Positions 4,925-60,204 of a DNA stretch of 64,000 bases are shown in pieces. The DNA lies in assembly GCF_006345805.1 (NCBI RefSeq), contig NC_043022.1, positions 19,592,001-19,656,000 on the forward strand, in the 5' to 3' direction. A program made the translations under genes and the position numbers. This DNA comes from Octopus sinensis (taxonomy: Eukaryota). The notes beneath the pieces were generated by a model. That model had not been told where the DNA came from and searched no databases. It worked only from the letters and a program-made list of their open reading frames with translations. The stretch's first letter is position 1, and every line of letters begins with the position of its first letter.

Positions 4925-5087
4925 ATTTAGCGAAGAAGCAAAGTCTAAACAAGTGCCGTTCACCTACTTACCATTTGGTGCAGGACCAAGAATGTGTCTT
5001 GGAACGAGACTGGCCAAGCTGGAGTTCAAGATAGCAGCTGTTGAAATGATTCGAAATTTCAAAATTCTTCGAACTGAAAAAACCGAA
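4925..5087 (+). CDS. CYP3A-like P450 paralog A, heme-binding exon (FGAGPRMCLG)
   Basis: FxxGxRxCxG motif; AG/GTAAGT splice sites; 163 nt, in phase with the flanking exons. Confidence 0.96.
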
Positions 5088-5665
5088 GTAAGTTCTATTG
5101 TTTCTTTTGTAAACTTTGAAATATATATCAAATTTATGGGTATATATTTTAAATACGTATATATATATTCTTTTTCTTGCTTTTATTTTGTAACGAGGTA
5201 ATTTCCTCTCAAGCTGTTTAGTCTGAAACATAGGTTCAATTCCCAGTCGAGACTTTATCTTTTATACTTTTATCTTTTACTTGTTCCTGTCATTGGACAG
5301 TGGCCATGCTAGAGCACCACATGGAAGGATTTCCTTAAATAAATCAACTTCAGCACTTATTTCAATATCTGGCTTTCATTCTATCGGTCTCTTTTACTAC
5401 TCGACAATGATACTTTTACTACTCTACGGGAACGTAAACAAACCAACACCGGTCATCAAGCATTGATGCGGTAACAAACGAAAGTGTAACACGCACACAT
5501 CTATGCGACCTCGTGTGTACCGTTGGCGATTTTTTTCCTCTGTCTTCCCTTCTCTGGATCTTTCCTTCTCCTATGTTTCCGACGAAGAGCGTCCAATAAT
5601 ACTATATTTGTTTGTTCCACGTCCTTGCGTTGTTGTGTTTTTTGTACTTTCTTGTTTGGATTAAC

Positions 5666-5697
<32 letters not shown>

Positions 5698-6462
5698 AAT
5701 ATATACGACGGACTTCCACATGGTTTCCGTCTATCAAATTCACGCACAAAGAATTAGTCGGTCCAGGACAGTAGTACAAATTGTCTGTCCAGTTTAGAAT
5801 GTAGTGGGACTGAACCCGAAGCCCCGTGTTTACAAAGCCAGCTTCATAACCACGTAGTCATACCCACATCCTGTACATTTTTAACCTAAAGAAAATCTTG
5901 TTATTAATCTCTGTAGTTGCAACCATATCTGCATGGTTTCAAATTCAATTTCCCTGGAAGGAATGCCTTGAACAGGGGTCACTTGTGTCGCAGTTTTTGT
6001 AAAACTGGTCTTGTATTGAAGTGGTCGTCATCATCGGTTGTCTTTAATACCACCATCATATTGCCTGGAGTTACCGTTAGTGAGCGAAGAACCAGATCCT
6101 TAAAGAAAAACACTGGGGTCGATTTCTTCAGCTAAACTCTTCAAGGTGGTGCTTCAGCATGATCGCAGTCCTGTGCCTACACCAACTAAAAGGATTTGTG
6201 TGTGTGTTTGTATATGTATATGTATATGTGTATGTGTGTGTTTGTGCGTTTGTGTTTGTGCGCGCGTGTGTGTGAGTGTGTGTGTGTGAACAGGTCGCGG
6301 TCTCAAAGCGCCGAAAATATTTTGACAAATCAAATTTAAATGTGGAAGTGAATCTAACGGTTTTGTGTGATTCTTAAATGGCTTATAAACACCTTCCATG
6401 CTGCAATTGTTTTCGTTCCAGCACACGATCTCAGATCAGGTTACTTGCTATGCGAGTACATC

Positions 6463-6506
<44 letters not shown>

Positions 6507-6944
6507 ATATATAATATATATATATATAATATATATATATATATGTATAATAGAAATATTAAAATTACTAAGTCTCTCTAAAAGAGAACAACGGCAGCGT
6601 TCCCGGAAAATAATAGTTATCGCCATACTAATATGGCATTCTAAACATGGTTGCAACTACAGAGATTAATAACAAGATTTTCTTTAGGTAAAAAATGTAC
6701 AGGATGTGGGTATGACTACGTGGTTATGAAGCTGGCTTTGTAAACACGGGGCTTCGGGTTCAGTCCCACTACATTCTAAACTGGACAGACAATTTGAACA
6801 GAGATTGCCGTTGTTCTCTTTTAGAGAGACTTAGTAATTTTAATATTTCTATTATTGAAAACAAGTGGATGTATTCCACCGAAGCTAGGTAAATAAAACC
6901 TTTGAACAGAGATTGTCAGAAGCGACACCTACTGGTCTGGCTAC

Positions 6945-6986
6945 GCTGCATTGAAAAGGGGCAATACCCCGAAACGCGTCTGTAGC
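6945..6986 (+). ncRNA. Minimal type I hammerhead ribozyme, U3-A8 core variant, copy 1
   Basis: gctgca TTGAAAA gggg caata cccc GAA acgcgt C tgtagc: stem I gctgca/tgtagc, stem II GGGG/CCCC, palindromic stem III ACGCGU, GUC cleavage after 6980. Confidence 0.82.
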
Positions 6987-7306
6987 TGCCGGCCAAGTAG
7001 TGTGGAGCGACTGACCTCCCTTGTTCAAAGGTATATGGATACAGTTTGTGTATCAAATAGCTAACTTAAGGCGATGGCCTCATGGAGCTAATAAGCGGTC
7101 AGCTTTATTCTTATTTTTATAAGAATGCCATATTAGTATGGCGATAACTATTATTTTCCGGGAACGCTGCCGTTGTTCTCTTTTAGAGAGACTTAGTAAT
7201 TTTAATATTTCTATTATTGAAAACAAGTGGATGTATTCCACCGAAGCTAGGTAAATAAAACCTTTGAACAGAGATTGTCAGAAGCGACACCTACTGGTCT
7301 GGCTAC

Positions 7307-7348
7307 GCTGCATTGAAAAGGGGCAATACCCCGAAACGCGTCTGTAGC
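7307..7348 (+). ncRNA. Hammerhead ribozyme U3-A8 variant, copy 2
   Basis: Identical to copy 1; predicted cleavage after 7342. Confidence 0.82.
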
Positions 7349-7669
7349 TGCCGGCCAAGTAGTGTGGAGCGACTGACCTCCCTTGTTCAAAGGTTATATG
7401 GATACAGTTTGTGTATCAAATAGCTAACTTAAGGCGATGGCCTCATGGAGCTAATAAGCGGTCAGCTTTATTCTTATTTTTATAAGAATGCCATATTAGT
7501 ATGGCGATAACTATTATTTTCCGGGAACGCTGCCGTTGTTCTCTTTTAGAGAGACTTAGTAATTTTAATATTTCTATTATTGAAAACAAGTGGATGTATT
7601 CCACCGAAGCTAGGTAAATAAAACCTTTGAACAGAGATTGTCAGAAGCGACACCTACTGGTCTGGCTAC

Positions 7670-7711
7670 GCTGCATTGAAAAGGGGCAATACCCCGAAAC
7701 GCGTCTGTAGC
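7670..7711 (+). ncRNA. Hammerhead ribozyme U3-A8 variant, copy 3
   Basis: Identical to copy 1; predicted cleavage after 7705. Confidence 0.82.
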
Positions 7712-7951
7712 TGCCGGCCAAGTAGTGTGGAGCGACTGACCTCCCTTGTTCAAAGGTTATATGGATACAGTTTGTGTATCAAATAGCTAACTTAAGGCGA
7801 TGGCCTCATGGAGCTAATAAGCGGTCAGCTTTATTCTTATTTTTATAAGAATGTCATATTAGTACGGCGATAACTATTATATATATGTAAGTATATGTAT
7901 ATTTGTATGCTTGTCATATGATTAAATAACATACATATGTCTCTCTTCCAG

Positions 7952-8035
7952 GACCCTCTTGCATTAGACGACAGTGTCTTTCTGGCTGCCAAAAACGGAG
8001 TTTGGGTGAAGTTTGAACGAAGATTAAAAAAATAA
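7952..8035 (+). CDS. CYP3A-like P450 paralog A, terminal coding exon (DPLALDDSVFLAAKNGVWVKFERRLKK*)
   Basis: cttccAG acceptor, phase 0, TAA stop; homologous to 60121-60204. Confidence 0.92.
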   Translation, partial: DPLALDDSVFLAAKNGVWVKFERRLKK

Positions 8036-8298: not shown

Positions 8299-8814
8299 TT
8301 TCTATTTTTAATAGTAACTGTTAATGATTTTGTTTCAATCCTTTTACTATTTTCATTTTGTCTTTCTTACATTTAACACCTGACACATTGTTACTTCTCA
8401 TCTTTTCTCTCTCTCTCTCTCACGCACGCGCATGCACACATTTATTTTCTCCTCTCTCTCTCTCCACCCCTCCCCCTCTCTCCTCAGGAAAAACAAAAGA
8501 TTAACGGATAAGATGAGATGGTTTTTCTTTACAGAAATTGTTGTAATGAGAAATGTTACAAACTTTTAAGGTTCCTAAGATTTGCCTTATCTCACAAAAT
8601 GGGATATTCACAATTGTTTCCACATGAACAGATGTATATTAACCAACTGGAAAGTGCAACCAAAGAGGACAACTATTCCTCTTTGGAATTACTGTACTTT
8701 GTTGTTTTCTTTTGCCTGTTTATTTTTTCTTTTGTTTATATCATTCTTATTTCTATATTTTATCTACCTTTGCTTTATTTTATTTTTCTCAGAACCGACG
8801 GAGTTCCATGATAT

Positions 8815-11190
8815 GTGTGTGTGTGTGTGTGTATGTATATATGTATGTATGTATGTATGTTAGTTAGTTAGTTATTTTTTGGCTCAAAAAAAAGCAAGGC
8901 CATGTCGGGGGACATGGAGTTATGTACAGGGTGGTGTTCATGTAAAGAGTTCAGGCCACTTGAGGTCAAGGAAGACTTTGAACCGAGCGATCGTCGGCAT
9001 CTTCACCATCTCGTCCGGCAGCTTATTCCACGGATCCGCAACCCGGACGGAGAAAGCCCCTCTCTTTCGATTGAGATGAAATCGTCGCAGATAGAGCTTT
9101 TCGGAATGACCCCGCAGCCGACGCTCTGGAGCAGGAGTGAAGAACAGCTATTTCGAGAGGTTACACTTTCCGCTTTTGATGTATGTATGTATGTATGTAT
9201 GTATGTATGTATGTATGTATGTATGTATGTATGTATACAATTAGGGGGTTATGTTAGCTTGATGAAGGGATGGTATCATCCAAGGAAATACTGGTTCATT
9301 ACCAAATGTTTTGGGGGGAATCAACTTCCTTAAAATAATAATTATATCTCTTATTATAAAAGGCAGATTCTATCTGCCTCCCTTTGTATCTTATAGAAAT
9401 CTACAATATAGGATTTCTTCAATTACAATTTACCTAGCATTTTTAAGAGTAGAATGCATCGGGTCGTGCCAGGTCCAGTTTTTAAAATTTCAACCCCAAT
9501 TAAGCTAAATTTAGAGAAAACTCACATTGTGGTGTATGAGTCAAATGCTTTTCTTAGTGTGGGTTACAGCACTCGCACACACACACACACAAAAAGGGAG
9601 CGATCTGATTCACTCACGCTATCACTCTCATTTCTACGACTTTCTCTTTGCAAGTGTGCAACGATTAAACTGAAACTATTTCTATAAAACGGATCACTCA
9701 TGCTATCAACATAATTTCTCCCACTTTCTCTTTGCAAGTGTACCTTAAACCACTACTAAAAAAATAAAAAACACAGCAAACAGAAACAAATAAATACATA
9801 ACGATTTACTCCTCACACAATTTCTTCAATTAGAGTTTACCTAAGATTTTTCAAAGTACTCCATTCGGTCATGCCATAAAAAATTTCTTTCAATTTCACC
9901 CCCAATTAAGACAAAATTCGAGAAAACTCAATATTTTAACATTTCACTCCGTAAGCATTGATGTACATGTGTGCGTGCGTGAGTGTGTGTGTGTGTGTGT
10001 GTGTGTGTATGTATATATGTATGTATGTATGTATGTATGTTAGTTAGTTAGTTAGTTAGTTAATTTTTTGGCTCAAAAAAAAGCAAGGCCATGTCGGGGG
10101 ACATGGAGTTATGTACAGGGTGGTGTTCATGTAAAGAGTTCAGGCCACTTGAGGTCAAGGAAGACTTTGAACCGAGCGATCGTCGGCATCTTCACCATCT
10201 CGTCCGGCAGCTTATTCCACGGATCCGCAACCCGGACGGAGAAAGCCCCTCTCTTTCGATTGAGATGAAATCGTCGCAGATAGAGCTTTTCGGAATGACC
10301 CCGCAGCCGACGCTCTGGAGCAGGAGTGAAGAACAGCTATTTCGAGAGGTTACACTTTCCGCTTTTGATGTATGTATGTATGTATGTATGTATGTATGTA
10401 TGTATGTATGTATGTATGTATACAATTAGGGGGTTATGTTAGCTTGATGAAGGGATGGTATCATCCAAGGAAATACTGGTTCATTACCAAATGTTTTGGG
10501 GGGAATCAACTTCCTTAAAATAATAGTTATATCTCTTATTATAAAAGGCAGATTCTATCTGCCTCCCTTTGTATCTTATAGAAATCTACAATATAGGATT
10601 TCTTCAATACAATTTACCTAGCATTTTTAAGAGTAGAATGCATCGGGTCGTGCCAGGTCCAGTTTTTAAAATTTCAACCCCAATTAAGCTAAATTTAGAG
10701 AAAACTCACATTGTGGTGTATGAGTCAAATGCTTTTCTTAGTGTGGGTTACAGCACTCGCACACACACACACACAAAAAGGGAGCGATCTGATTCACTCA
10801 CGCTATCACTCTCATTTCTACGACTTTCTCTTTGCAAGTGTGCAACGATTAAACTGAAACTATTTCTATAAAACGGATCACTCATGCTATCAACATAATT
10901 TCTCCCACTTTCTCTTTGCAAGTGTACCTTAAACCACTACTAAAAAAATAAAAAACACAGCAAACAGAAACAAATAAATACATAACGATTTACTCCTCAC
11001 ACAATTTCTTCAATTAGAGTTTACCTAAGATTTTTCAAAGTACTCCATTCGGTCATGCCATAAAAAATTTCTTTCAATTTCACCCCCAATTAAGACAAAA
11101 TTCGAGAAAACTCAATATTTTAACATTTCACTCCGTAAGCATTGATGTACATGTGTGCGTGCGTGAGTGTGTGTGTGTGTGTGTGTGTGT
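8815..11190. repeat. Near-perfect ~1189-bp tandem duplication
   Basis: The same ORFs recur at 8879 and 10068 (offset 1189); breakpoints lie in GT/GTAT microsatellites. Confidence 0.9.
8860..9175 (-). mobile_element. CR1-like LINE 3' fragment with (CTAA)n tail (second copy ~10040-10365)
   Basis: Minus strand reads RLRGHSEKLYLRRFHLNRKRGAFSVRVADPWNKLP, a CR1 ORF2 C-terminal signature. Confidence 0.8.

Positions 11191-21503: not shown

Positions 21504-60204
<38,701 letters not shown>

What the first reader, a model, noticed from the sequence alone, without database searches (positions are those of the whole stretch)
6806..7878. Second, unrelated array (362-nt x3) with a compensatory U3-A8 hammerhead core
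Seen: gctgca-UUGAAAA-gggg caata cccc-GAA-acgcgu-C-uguagc. The usual C3-G8 pair is replaced by U3-A8 while G5, A6, A9 and GAAA are kept. Stem III is the palindrome ACGCGU, too short to fold alone. Stem I can extend (cacctactggtctggc / gccggccaagtagtgtg). The array is sense to paralog A, in its last intron, and ends ~70 nt before the acceptor. Known: positions 3 and 8 form a tertiary Watson-Crick pair, and minimal palindromic HHRs act as dimers. Inference: the covariation suggests retained function, and a CUGANGA pattern search would miss this motif.
Basis: partly seen in the sequence, partly recalled or inferred. Interest (0 to 1): 0.85.

Follow-up and report, generated by a model that had tools for sequence, protein, structure and literature searches.

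The report
Retrozyme lineage with swapped hammerhead core
This cytochrome P450 intron holds three tandem copies of a 363-base repeat whose hammerhead motif occurs about 1,700 times or more in this genome; it carries an already described U-A swap in its core and is predicted to cut only in pairs, likely yielding RNA circles that a Penelope-type retrotransposon enzyme would copy into TA repeats.

Summary
Observation confirmed. The array (362, 363, 350 nt) is one arm of a larger insertion (6547-7880) in a (TA)n tract of a P450 last intron. It belongs to a dispersed non-LTR retrozyme lineage: 1,101 cores of this subfamily, 594 of older ones, seven subfamilies 77-97% alike. U3-A8 is the lineage state; 12 single mutants and no C3-G8 copy were found. 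Position 7 varies, helices I and II covary, and the helix III hexamer takes all four possible palindromes (ACGCGU, ACUAGU, ACAUGU, ACCGGU), as expected if cleavage needs a dimer. Insertions have Penelope-like anatomy: 5' truncation, an inverted arm, TA targets, two fixed 3' ends 63 nt apart, one of each in 23 of 23 classifiable two-armed insertions, both arms sharing one haplotype. Natural U3-A8 cores, dimeric hammerheads and retrozymes are all published, so this is a new variant of a known kind; I found no cephalopod retrozyme in print. Cleavage, circles, expression and the autonomous partner are not shown.

The parts
6806..7880 (+). Sense arm: tandem retrozyme units 6806-7167, 7168-7530, 7531-7880; ends at the 'short' 3' end (unit position 350)
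6945..6986 (+). Type I hammerhead 1 (U3 6951, A8 6956, palindrome 6974-6979, predicted cut 6980|6981)
7307..7348 (+). Type I hammerhead 2 (U3 7313, A8 7318, palindrome 7336-7341, predicted cut 7342|7343)
7670..7711 (+). Type I hammerhead 3 (U3 7676, A8 7681, palindrome 7699-7704, predicted cut 7705|7706)
6981..7342 (+). Predicted released monomer 1 (362 nt)
   Evidence: inferred from cut sites
7343..7705 (+). Predicted released monomer 2 (363 nt); circular fold -122 kcal/mol, z -6.8 against 60 shuffles
   Evidence: prediction
7518..7580 (+). 63-nt 'tail' between the two fixed 3' ends (unit 351 to 50); inferred RT start sites at its two edges
   Evidence: model from PMC11167929
6547..6642 (-). 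Inverted, 5'-truncated arm (unit 318-363 and 1-50), ending at the 'tail' 3' end
6647..6799 (-). 153-nt inverted copy of the same intron (5774-5926, 98.7%) captured between the two arms
6467..6549 (.). (TA)n target tract, left side; short TA-rich rest at 7881-7900
4925..5087 (+). P450 penultimate exon (heme-binding motif); donor GT at 5088
7952..8035 (+). P450 last coding exon, read by eye from the printed sequence; paralog at about 60120 has only (TA)n at the matching intron site

Best explanation
The array is a likely recent insertion of a non-coding, non-LTR retrozyme whose U3-A8 hammerheads are predicted to cut as pairs of neighbouring units, likely releasing 363-nt monomers that are closed into circles and would be copied into (TA)n by a Penelope-like (PLE) reverse transcriptase. 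Steps: (1) tandem units are transcribed, by read-through such as the P450 pre-mRNA or from a source locus (inferred); (2) two neighbouring units pair their hexamer palindromes into a 6-bp helix III and swap helix I strands, so both C17 sites are cut (predicted by folding, supported by covariation; cleavage untested); (3) the monomer's ends are held by the long stem I and ligated, likely by RtcB as shown for other retrozymes; a monomer circle cannot form helix III and is stable (inferred); (4) a PLE endonuclease/RT cuts (TA)n and primes from both DNA ends at two fixed internal sites 63 nt apart on one RNA species, copying through the cut site for up to about ten units (anatomy shown, enzyme inferred); (5) the two cDNA ends are joined 5'-to-5', sometimes with template switches (anatomy shown). 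U3-A8 is an isosteric swap fixed before the seven subfamilies split; it needs no new chemistry.
For: Dispersed, young family: 201 matches at the 40 of 906 candidates scored, full units 96-100% identical; 1,101 cores with positions 3, 7, 8 free, 99 of the 100 listed U3-A7-A8. Non-U3 copies 9 (5 C3-A8, 4 A3-A8), non-A8 copies 3, none both; C3-G8 with this helix II 0. Subfamily D, found first through its tail motif: 334 cores with 3, 7, 8 free, 94 of 100 listed U3+A8 (counted by eye). N7 is A, C or U; 103 of 310 non-core columns differ among seven subfamilies. 15 chosen copies: 97.3% of 255 cells paired, 7 of 17 pairs changed on both sides, score 0.385 against 0.181 shuffled and at most 0.134 slid. 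Helix III centre among 100 listed of 594 D/E/F cores: AU 56, UA 37, CG 3, non-palindromic 4 (by eye); A/B/C have GC. Two-unit transcript: inter-unit helix III P 0.83-1.0, monomer 0.0. Of 32 family-A loci: 23 two-armed with one short and one tail end, 0 with two alike, 2 with another end, 6 one-armed, 1 cut off; 31 of 32 have a TA flank. Haplotype differences 15 of 730 between arms, 10 of 683 within arms, 1,921 of 5,550 between loci. 1 of 55 inner ends lies near the cut site. Literature: PMC7229834, PMC8557442, PMC11167929, PMC3088659.
Against: No cleavage or circle was observed here. In Xenopus 8 of 9 predicted retrozyme dimers gave no cleavage in vitro (bioRxiv 2026.07.22.740005). In the anole PLE, hammerhead mutants did not impair insertion in vitro and uncut RNA was the main template (PMC11167929). 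For two subfamily-E tandems the predicted inter-unit helix III is weak (P 0.0 and 0.24-0.28), and most E copies have a G.A mismatch at the outer helix I pair. Core invariance in B, C, E, F is partly built into the search patterns. The number of pairs changed on both sides was reached by 61 of 500 shuffles, and shuffles ignore kinship. One B/C locus is short/short, and among 29 D loci one is short/short and one tail/tail. 73 of 82 private substitutions are in single units and 5 in some units only, so unit identity does not prove rolling-circle copying. No autonomous partner was found.
Confidence: 0.8

Rival explanations
1. Same PLE-mobilised element, but the template is uncut linear multimeric transcript; the hammerhead is slow or protein-dependent and serves only to free the RNA from host transcripts, with no circle.
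For: Anole PLE uses unprocessed RNA and its hammerhead needs protein (PMC11167929, parts 1-2 read). Variants present in only some units of an insertion (5 cases) fit a heterogeneous multimer. No pile-up of inner ends at the cut site (1 of 55) fits uncut RNA as well as circles.
Against: Compensatory changes in helices I, II and the intermolecular helix III across seven subfamilies show that propagation depends on the dimeric fold; arms of up to ten units from one haplotype (L168); circles are shown for coral, mussel and axolotl retrozymes (PMC7229834).
Confidence: 0.12
2. A satellite amplified at the DNA level that carries a dead hammerhead relic; U3-A8 is a chance founder state.
For: Subfamily A is so young (about 1% from its majority state) that its invariance alone says nothing; single copies do mutate at 3 and 8.
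Against: Dispersed short arrays with random 5' and two fixed 3' ends in (TA)n; covariation and four palindromes between subfamilies.
Confidence: 0.05
3. The intronic copy is kept by the host to cut P450 pre-mRNA near the last acceptor and tune this paralog.
For: Sense orientation, 70 nt from the acceptor, three intact cores; an acceptor-like tract and AAUAAA lie in each unit.
Against: 99-100% identical to copies on many other contigs, absent from the paralog; nothing singles this copy out. An effect on splicing would be a side effect.
Confidence: 0.03

Closest known systems
Non-LTR retrozymes of coral, mussel and axolotl (Cervera and de la Pena 2020, PMC7229834; parts 2-4 of 6 read, supplement unreadable)
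   Same: 150-450-nt non-coding tandem units, one type I hammerhead each, self-paired predicted circle; axolotl motifs cut well only as dimers
   Different: U3-A8 core; four alternative palindromes in one lineage; (TA)n targets and inverted two-armed insertions are not described in the parts read; no cephalopod in the main text
Natural U3-A8 hammerheads (Perreault 2011, PMC3088659, passages; Cervera 2014, PMC4209133, parts 1-2 of 4)
   Same: Same core covariation: 'several' natural examples, and about 1,300 hits in Schistosoma mansoni PLE minimal hammerheads; active in vitro according to Perreault's citation of Przybilski and Hammann 2007 (not held, not read)
   Different: Here it sits in a canonical-shape motif (helix I 6 bp, helix II 4 bp, no extra base after A9) inside tandem retrozymes, not in heterogeneous single minimal motifs
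PLE insertion anatomy and two-site internal RT initiation (Craig 2021, PMC8557442, passages; Frangieh 2024, PMC11167929, parts 1-2 of 4)
   Same: 5' truncation, partial tandems, inverted 5'-truncated copy, tail at one end only, (TA)n bias; tail equals the stretch between two RT start sites
   Different: Non-coding 363-nt template; tail 63 nt rather than 30-40; the one-short-one-tail pairing and shared haplotype of both arms are counted here
Animal retrozymes as non-autonomous PLE derivatives (bioRxiv 10.64898/2026.07.22.740005, parts 1-3 of 5)
   Same: Proposes PLE origin and mobilisation of tandem type I hammerhead repeats
   Different: 35 genomes, no mollusc; argues from co-occurrence and pLTR similarity, not insertion ends; here no pLTR homologue was found

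Membership tests
Type I hammerhead ribozyme | U4 G5 A6 A9, G12 A13 A14, A15.1-U16.1, H17 | tested here: met
Type I hammerhead ribozyme | Consensus letters C3 and G8 | tested here: not met
   U3 and A8 throughout
Type I hammerhead ribozyme | Watson-Crick pair 3-8 (accepted natural variant U3-A8) | tested here: met
   15 of 15 (never varies, so no covariation inside the lineage); variant documented in PMC3088659 and PMC4209133
Type I hammerhead ribozyme | Helices I and II with covariation; helix III | tested here: met
   helix III is predicted only between units
Type I hammerhead ribozyme | Match to an Rfam hammerhead model | tested here: not met
   0 matches at E<=10
Type I hammerhead ribozyme | Loop 1-loop 2 tertiary contact | tested here: inconclusive
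   UAC/U internal loop is the majority state in most subfamilies and loop 2 varies around CAAAUA; likeness to the Schistosoma motif is recalled, not tested
Type I hammerhead ribozyme | Self-cleavage 3' of H17 | not testable with these tools
   needs an in vitro assay
PLE minimal hammerhead (min-HHR) | Helix II 7-8 bp, helix I 4-5 bp, unpaired base before helix II | tested here: not met
   helix II 4 bp, helix I 6 bp, no extra base against PMC4209133
Non-LTR retrozyme | Tandem 150-450-nt units, each with a type I hammerhead | tested here: met
Non-LTR retrozyme | Non-coding, no LTR flanks, GC under 50% | tested here: met
   no frame of 90 aa or more in the array; flanks are (TA)n; GC 0.387 in the 6001-8000 bin; PBS and PPT not searched
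Non-LTR retrozyme | Many dispersed copies | tested here: met
Non-LTR retrozyme | Expressed as linear and circular monomer RNA | not testable with these tools
   assembled contigs cannot tell a circle from tandem DNA
PLE-mobilised element | 5' truncation, partial tandems, inverted 5'-truncated copy, tail at one end, microsatellite target | tested here: met
   tail 63 nt
PLE-mobilised element | Shared sequence with the pLTR of an autonomous PLE in the genome | tested here: inconclusive
   no similarity in 30 of 90 canonical-core loci or; the search was not exhaustive

The most novel reading that the evidence does not exclude
The helix III palindrome is a self-recognition code: this lineage has moved through all four AC-NN-GU palindromes, and only like-with-like neighbours can be cut out and circularised (homo-duplexes -4.6 to -8.3 kcal/mol, mixed ones -1.1 to +1.0), which isolates subfamilies; and a dimeric PLE enzyme primes both cut DNA ends at two fixed sites on one 363-nt circle and rolls both ways, giving the smallest natural read-out of the PLE tail mechanism in vivo.
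Probability: 0.45. Interest if true: 0.62.

Novelty: new variant of a known kind. Interest (0 to 1): 0.42.

Why it matters
It shows that a whole retrozyme lineage (about 1,700 or more cores) escapes Rfam and CUGANGA searches, so retrozyme censuses undercount. It gives natural comparative evidence for two points that rest mostly on in vitro work: that short-helix-III hammerheads act as dimers (four palindromes), and that PLE-type insertion starts at two fixed RNA sites, one per DNA end, on one RNA species. A 363-nt template with a conserved stretch around and beyond the tail is a small handle for finding what a PLE reverse transcriptase recognises.

Tried and rejected
Rfam over the window gave only microsatellite noise and nothing on the array. 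One search used a pattern with one A too many; its 7 hits are copies with an extra A, and they were later included among family-A loci. The core table was mis-registered by an alignment gap and its subfamily labels were mixed; it was redone structure-anchored. The frame translated was off by one; the last exon was read by eye. Expression: no RNA holder listed; the three RNA-guess runs and one unlabelled run laid cover 28 of 28 bins and three of the four show the exact head-to-tail joint, but this does not show transcription or circles and is not used either way. Autonomous partner: the Pfam family asked for is not held; canonical-core loci (30 of 90 examined), tail-motif loci (30 of 220) and one read-through motif gave only more retrozyme copies or unrelated DNA; a PLE RT fragment (L052) shares nothing with the unit. 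A C3-G8 ancestor was sought and not found (the one C3-G8 row, L133, is unrelated); E and F were not searched with 3 and 8 free. An alternative helix I register using the upstream GCUAC was considered and dropped, as it breaks the core spacing. Earlier scan findings: none. Lunse 2017 and Przybilski 2007 are not held; either, or the unread supplement of PMC7229834, may already list such motifs or palindrome covariation.

Full report
Observation. The array is as described: 6806-7880, three units of 362, 363 and 350 nt, each with helix I (6 bp), UUGAAAA, helix II (4 bp, loop CAAUA), GAA, ACGCGU, C17 and the 3' strand of helix I (U3 at 6951, 7313, 7676). The 106-nt region folds at -48.4 kcal/mol, z -4.6. 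Rfam finds nothing at E<=10. The host is a cytochrome P450; the array is sense in the last intron (5088-7951), 70 nt before the acceptor, and the paralog near 58-60 kb has only (TA)n at that site. The insertion is larger than reported: an inverted arm at 6547-6642, then a 153-nt inverted copy of intron bases 5774-5926, then the sense arm. Genome size (2.72 Gb) and the look of its SINEs suggest an octopus; that label is recalled and comes from no call.

Family. A DNA search found 906 candidates, scored 40 and returned 201 matches, full units 96-100% alike, on many contigs. An exact pattern with positions 3, 7 and 8 free gives 1,101 cores, control 0; 99 of the 100 listed read U3-A7-A8. Looser patterns and a tail motif revealed older subfamilies; the D/E/F pattern alone gives 594 cores. 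Seven subfamilies are 77-97% alike outside the core, and 103 of 310 non-core columns differ. The unit is also held by 19 public runs from 7 studies under five organism codes, so the lineage is not confined to this assembly.

Is the core under selection? Copies mutate after insertion: 9 non-U3 and 3 non-A8 copies in the A/B/C context, all single changes, no C3-G8; in D, 94 of 100 listed cores are U3+A8 (by eye; 5 single changes, 1 unrelated C3-G8 sequence). That is neutral decay and says little. The test is between subfamilies. There N7 is A, C or U while the 12 catalytic letters stay (nominal P 0.008 for independent columns; partly circular, as B, C, E and F were found by patterns that fix these letters; A and D were not). 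Helix I reads GCUGCA/UGUAGC, GCUACA/UGUAGC, GCUGCA/UGCAGC, UCUGCA/UGCAGA, UCCACA/UGUGGA; helix II GGGG/CCCC, AGGG/CCCU, GGGG/CCCU, GAGG/CCUC. On 15 copies that I picked to span six subfamilies, 97.3% of 255 cells pair, 7 of 17 pairs change on both sides, score 0.385 against 0.181 +/- 0.022 shuffled and at most 0.134 slid; the count of such pairs was reached by 61 of 500 shuffles. On 12 A-C copies the outer extension covaries at two pairs but two other pairs hold in only 5 and 7 of 12. The 3-8 pair never varies inside the lineage, so the covariation is against the family consensus, not within this data.

Dimer. A monomer cannot close helix III (P 0.0), while a two-unit transcript is predicted to form the double hammerhead with a 6-bp inter-unit helix III (P 0.83-1.0). 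The hexamer centre is GC in A-C, and among 100 listed of 594 older cores AU 56, UA 37, CG 3 and non-palindromic 4 (by eye). All four self-complementary centres are used, each needing two changes; a monomer loop would have no reason to stay palindromic. Like pairs are -4.6 to -8.3 kcal/mol, mixed pairs -1.1 to +1.0. Against: two E tandems are predicted to form the helix poorly (P 0.0 and under 0.3), possibly from decay or the weaker AU centre.

Mobilisation. Insertions have scattered inner 5' ends and two fixed outer 3' ends, at unit positions about 350 and about 50, 63 nt apart, in (TA)n. Of 32 family-A loci, 23 are two-armed with one end of each kind, none has two alike, 2 have another end, 6 are one-armed and 1 is cut off; of 12 B/C loci 5 follow the rule, 1 is short/short and 6 are one-armed; 29 D loci, chosen through the tail and so biased, give 12 following, 2 alike and 15 one-armed or unresolved. 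Both arms share a haplotype: 15 of 730 site comparisons differ between arms, 10 of 683 within arms, 1,921 of 5,550 between loci (the last figure includes loci picked by the extra-A pattern). Four private substitutions are in every covering unit on both strands, five in some units and 73 in one. Only 1 of 55 inner ends lies near the cut site, so cut linear monomers are not the template; arms reach ten units. This is PLE anatomy as described in PMC8557442 (passages read), and PMC11167929 (parts 1-2 of 4) shows that the tail is the stretch between two internal RT start sites of an enzyme predicted to be dimeric. I infer a PLE enzyme priming both DNA ends on one RNA species. The partner was not found.

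Mechanism. Transcription of tandem units, dimeric cleavage at C17, ligation to a circle (circular fold -122 kcal/mol, z -6.8; RtcB ligation shown for other retrozymes in PMC7229834), then two-site target-primed copying into (TA)n. Shown here: sequence anatomy, copy number, covariation, end rule. Predicted: folds. Inferred: cleavage, circles, enzyme. Circle versus uncut multimer cannot be settled from DNA. Caution comes from 8 of 9 Xenopus dimers not cleaving in vitro (bioRxiv 2026.07.22.740005, parts 1-3 of 5) and from hammerhead-independent insertion by the anole PLE.

What is known. Natural U3-A8 cores are reported in PMC3088659 (passages) and PMC4209133 (parts 1-2 of 4; about 1,300 in Schistosoma PLE minimal motifs). 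Dimer action of palindromic motifs is reviewed in PMC6765202 (passages). Retrozymes and their likely PLE link are in PMC7229834 (parts 2-4 of 6) and the 2026 preprint. PMC7151607 (one passage) added nothing. Nine searches listed no cephalopod retrozyme and no U3-A8 retrozyme; the library lacks most subscription papers, two key papers were not held and one supplement could not be read, so this is weak evidence of novelty.

Verdict. Real, and likely functional as part of a selfish element; a new variant of a known kind. The U3-A8 swap is not the surprise; the four-palindrome series and the one-short-one-tail rule are the parts worth a specialist's time. Interest 0.42.

Noticed in passing
window 34450-36825: The 491-nt x4.8 array is a second, unrelated retrozyme-like repeat: canonical CUGAAGA at 34532-34538, a long insert in helix II, GAAA at 34607-34610, predicted cut after GUA at 34622, ends in (TA)n (fold z -3.6). 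Rfam did not list it.
   Followed up: partly
window 6647-6805: Between the arms lies an inverted copy of intron DNA from 620-770 nt upstream plus a short piece of unit positions about 97-111: template switching during integration. Only 1 of 26 arm junctions examined has filler over 25 nt.
   Followed up: partly
L129:968-1594: A subfamily E unit and a D2 unit stand in one tandem on one strand, 361 nt apart; their palindromes cannot pair (P 0.0). Suggests a switch between two RNA templates.
   Followed up: partly
window 7168-7257 (unit 1-90): The stretch around and beyond the tail end varies less between subfamilies (20 of 90 columns, against 27 of 55 in positions 91-145): a candidate RT-binding region.
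   Followed up: partly
window 7177-7188 and 7254-7259, repeated in each unit: An acceptor-like pyrimidine tract with UAG and an AAUAAA lie sense in the P450 intron; possible mis-splicing or early polyadenylation.
   Followed up: no
loci (e.g. L061, L067, L070, L079): Other, unrelated hammerhead-like families with the same hexamer occur with both C3-G8 and U3-A8 cores (90 against 18 control, and 235 against 26 control), so the swap may have arisen more than once in this genome.
   Followed up: no
L052:56-922: A 289-aa PLE-type RT fragment (RVT_1) upstream of a minimal hammerhead; no similarity to the retrozyme.
   Followed up: partly
positions 7246, 7265, 7355, 7389, 7462: The four runs laid mostly carry another haplotype of subfamily A than the window, the one seen in L031-L037; the window's copy seems to belong to a younger offshoot.
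   Followed up: partly
window 8800-10871: A roughly 1.2-kb stretch appears twice in tandem (same frames at 8872-9687 and 10064-10871); duplication or assembly artefact.
   Followed up: no
window 22285-27023, minus strand: A LINE-like element with gag-like, endonuclease and RT frames between the P450 paralogs.
   Followed up: no
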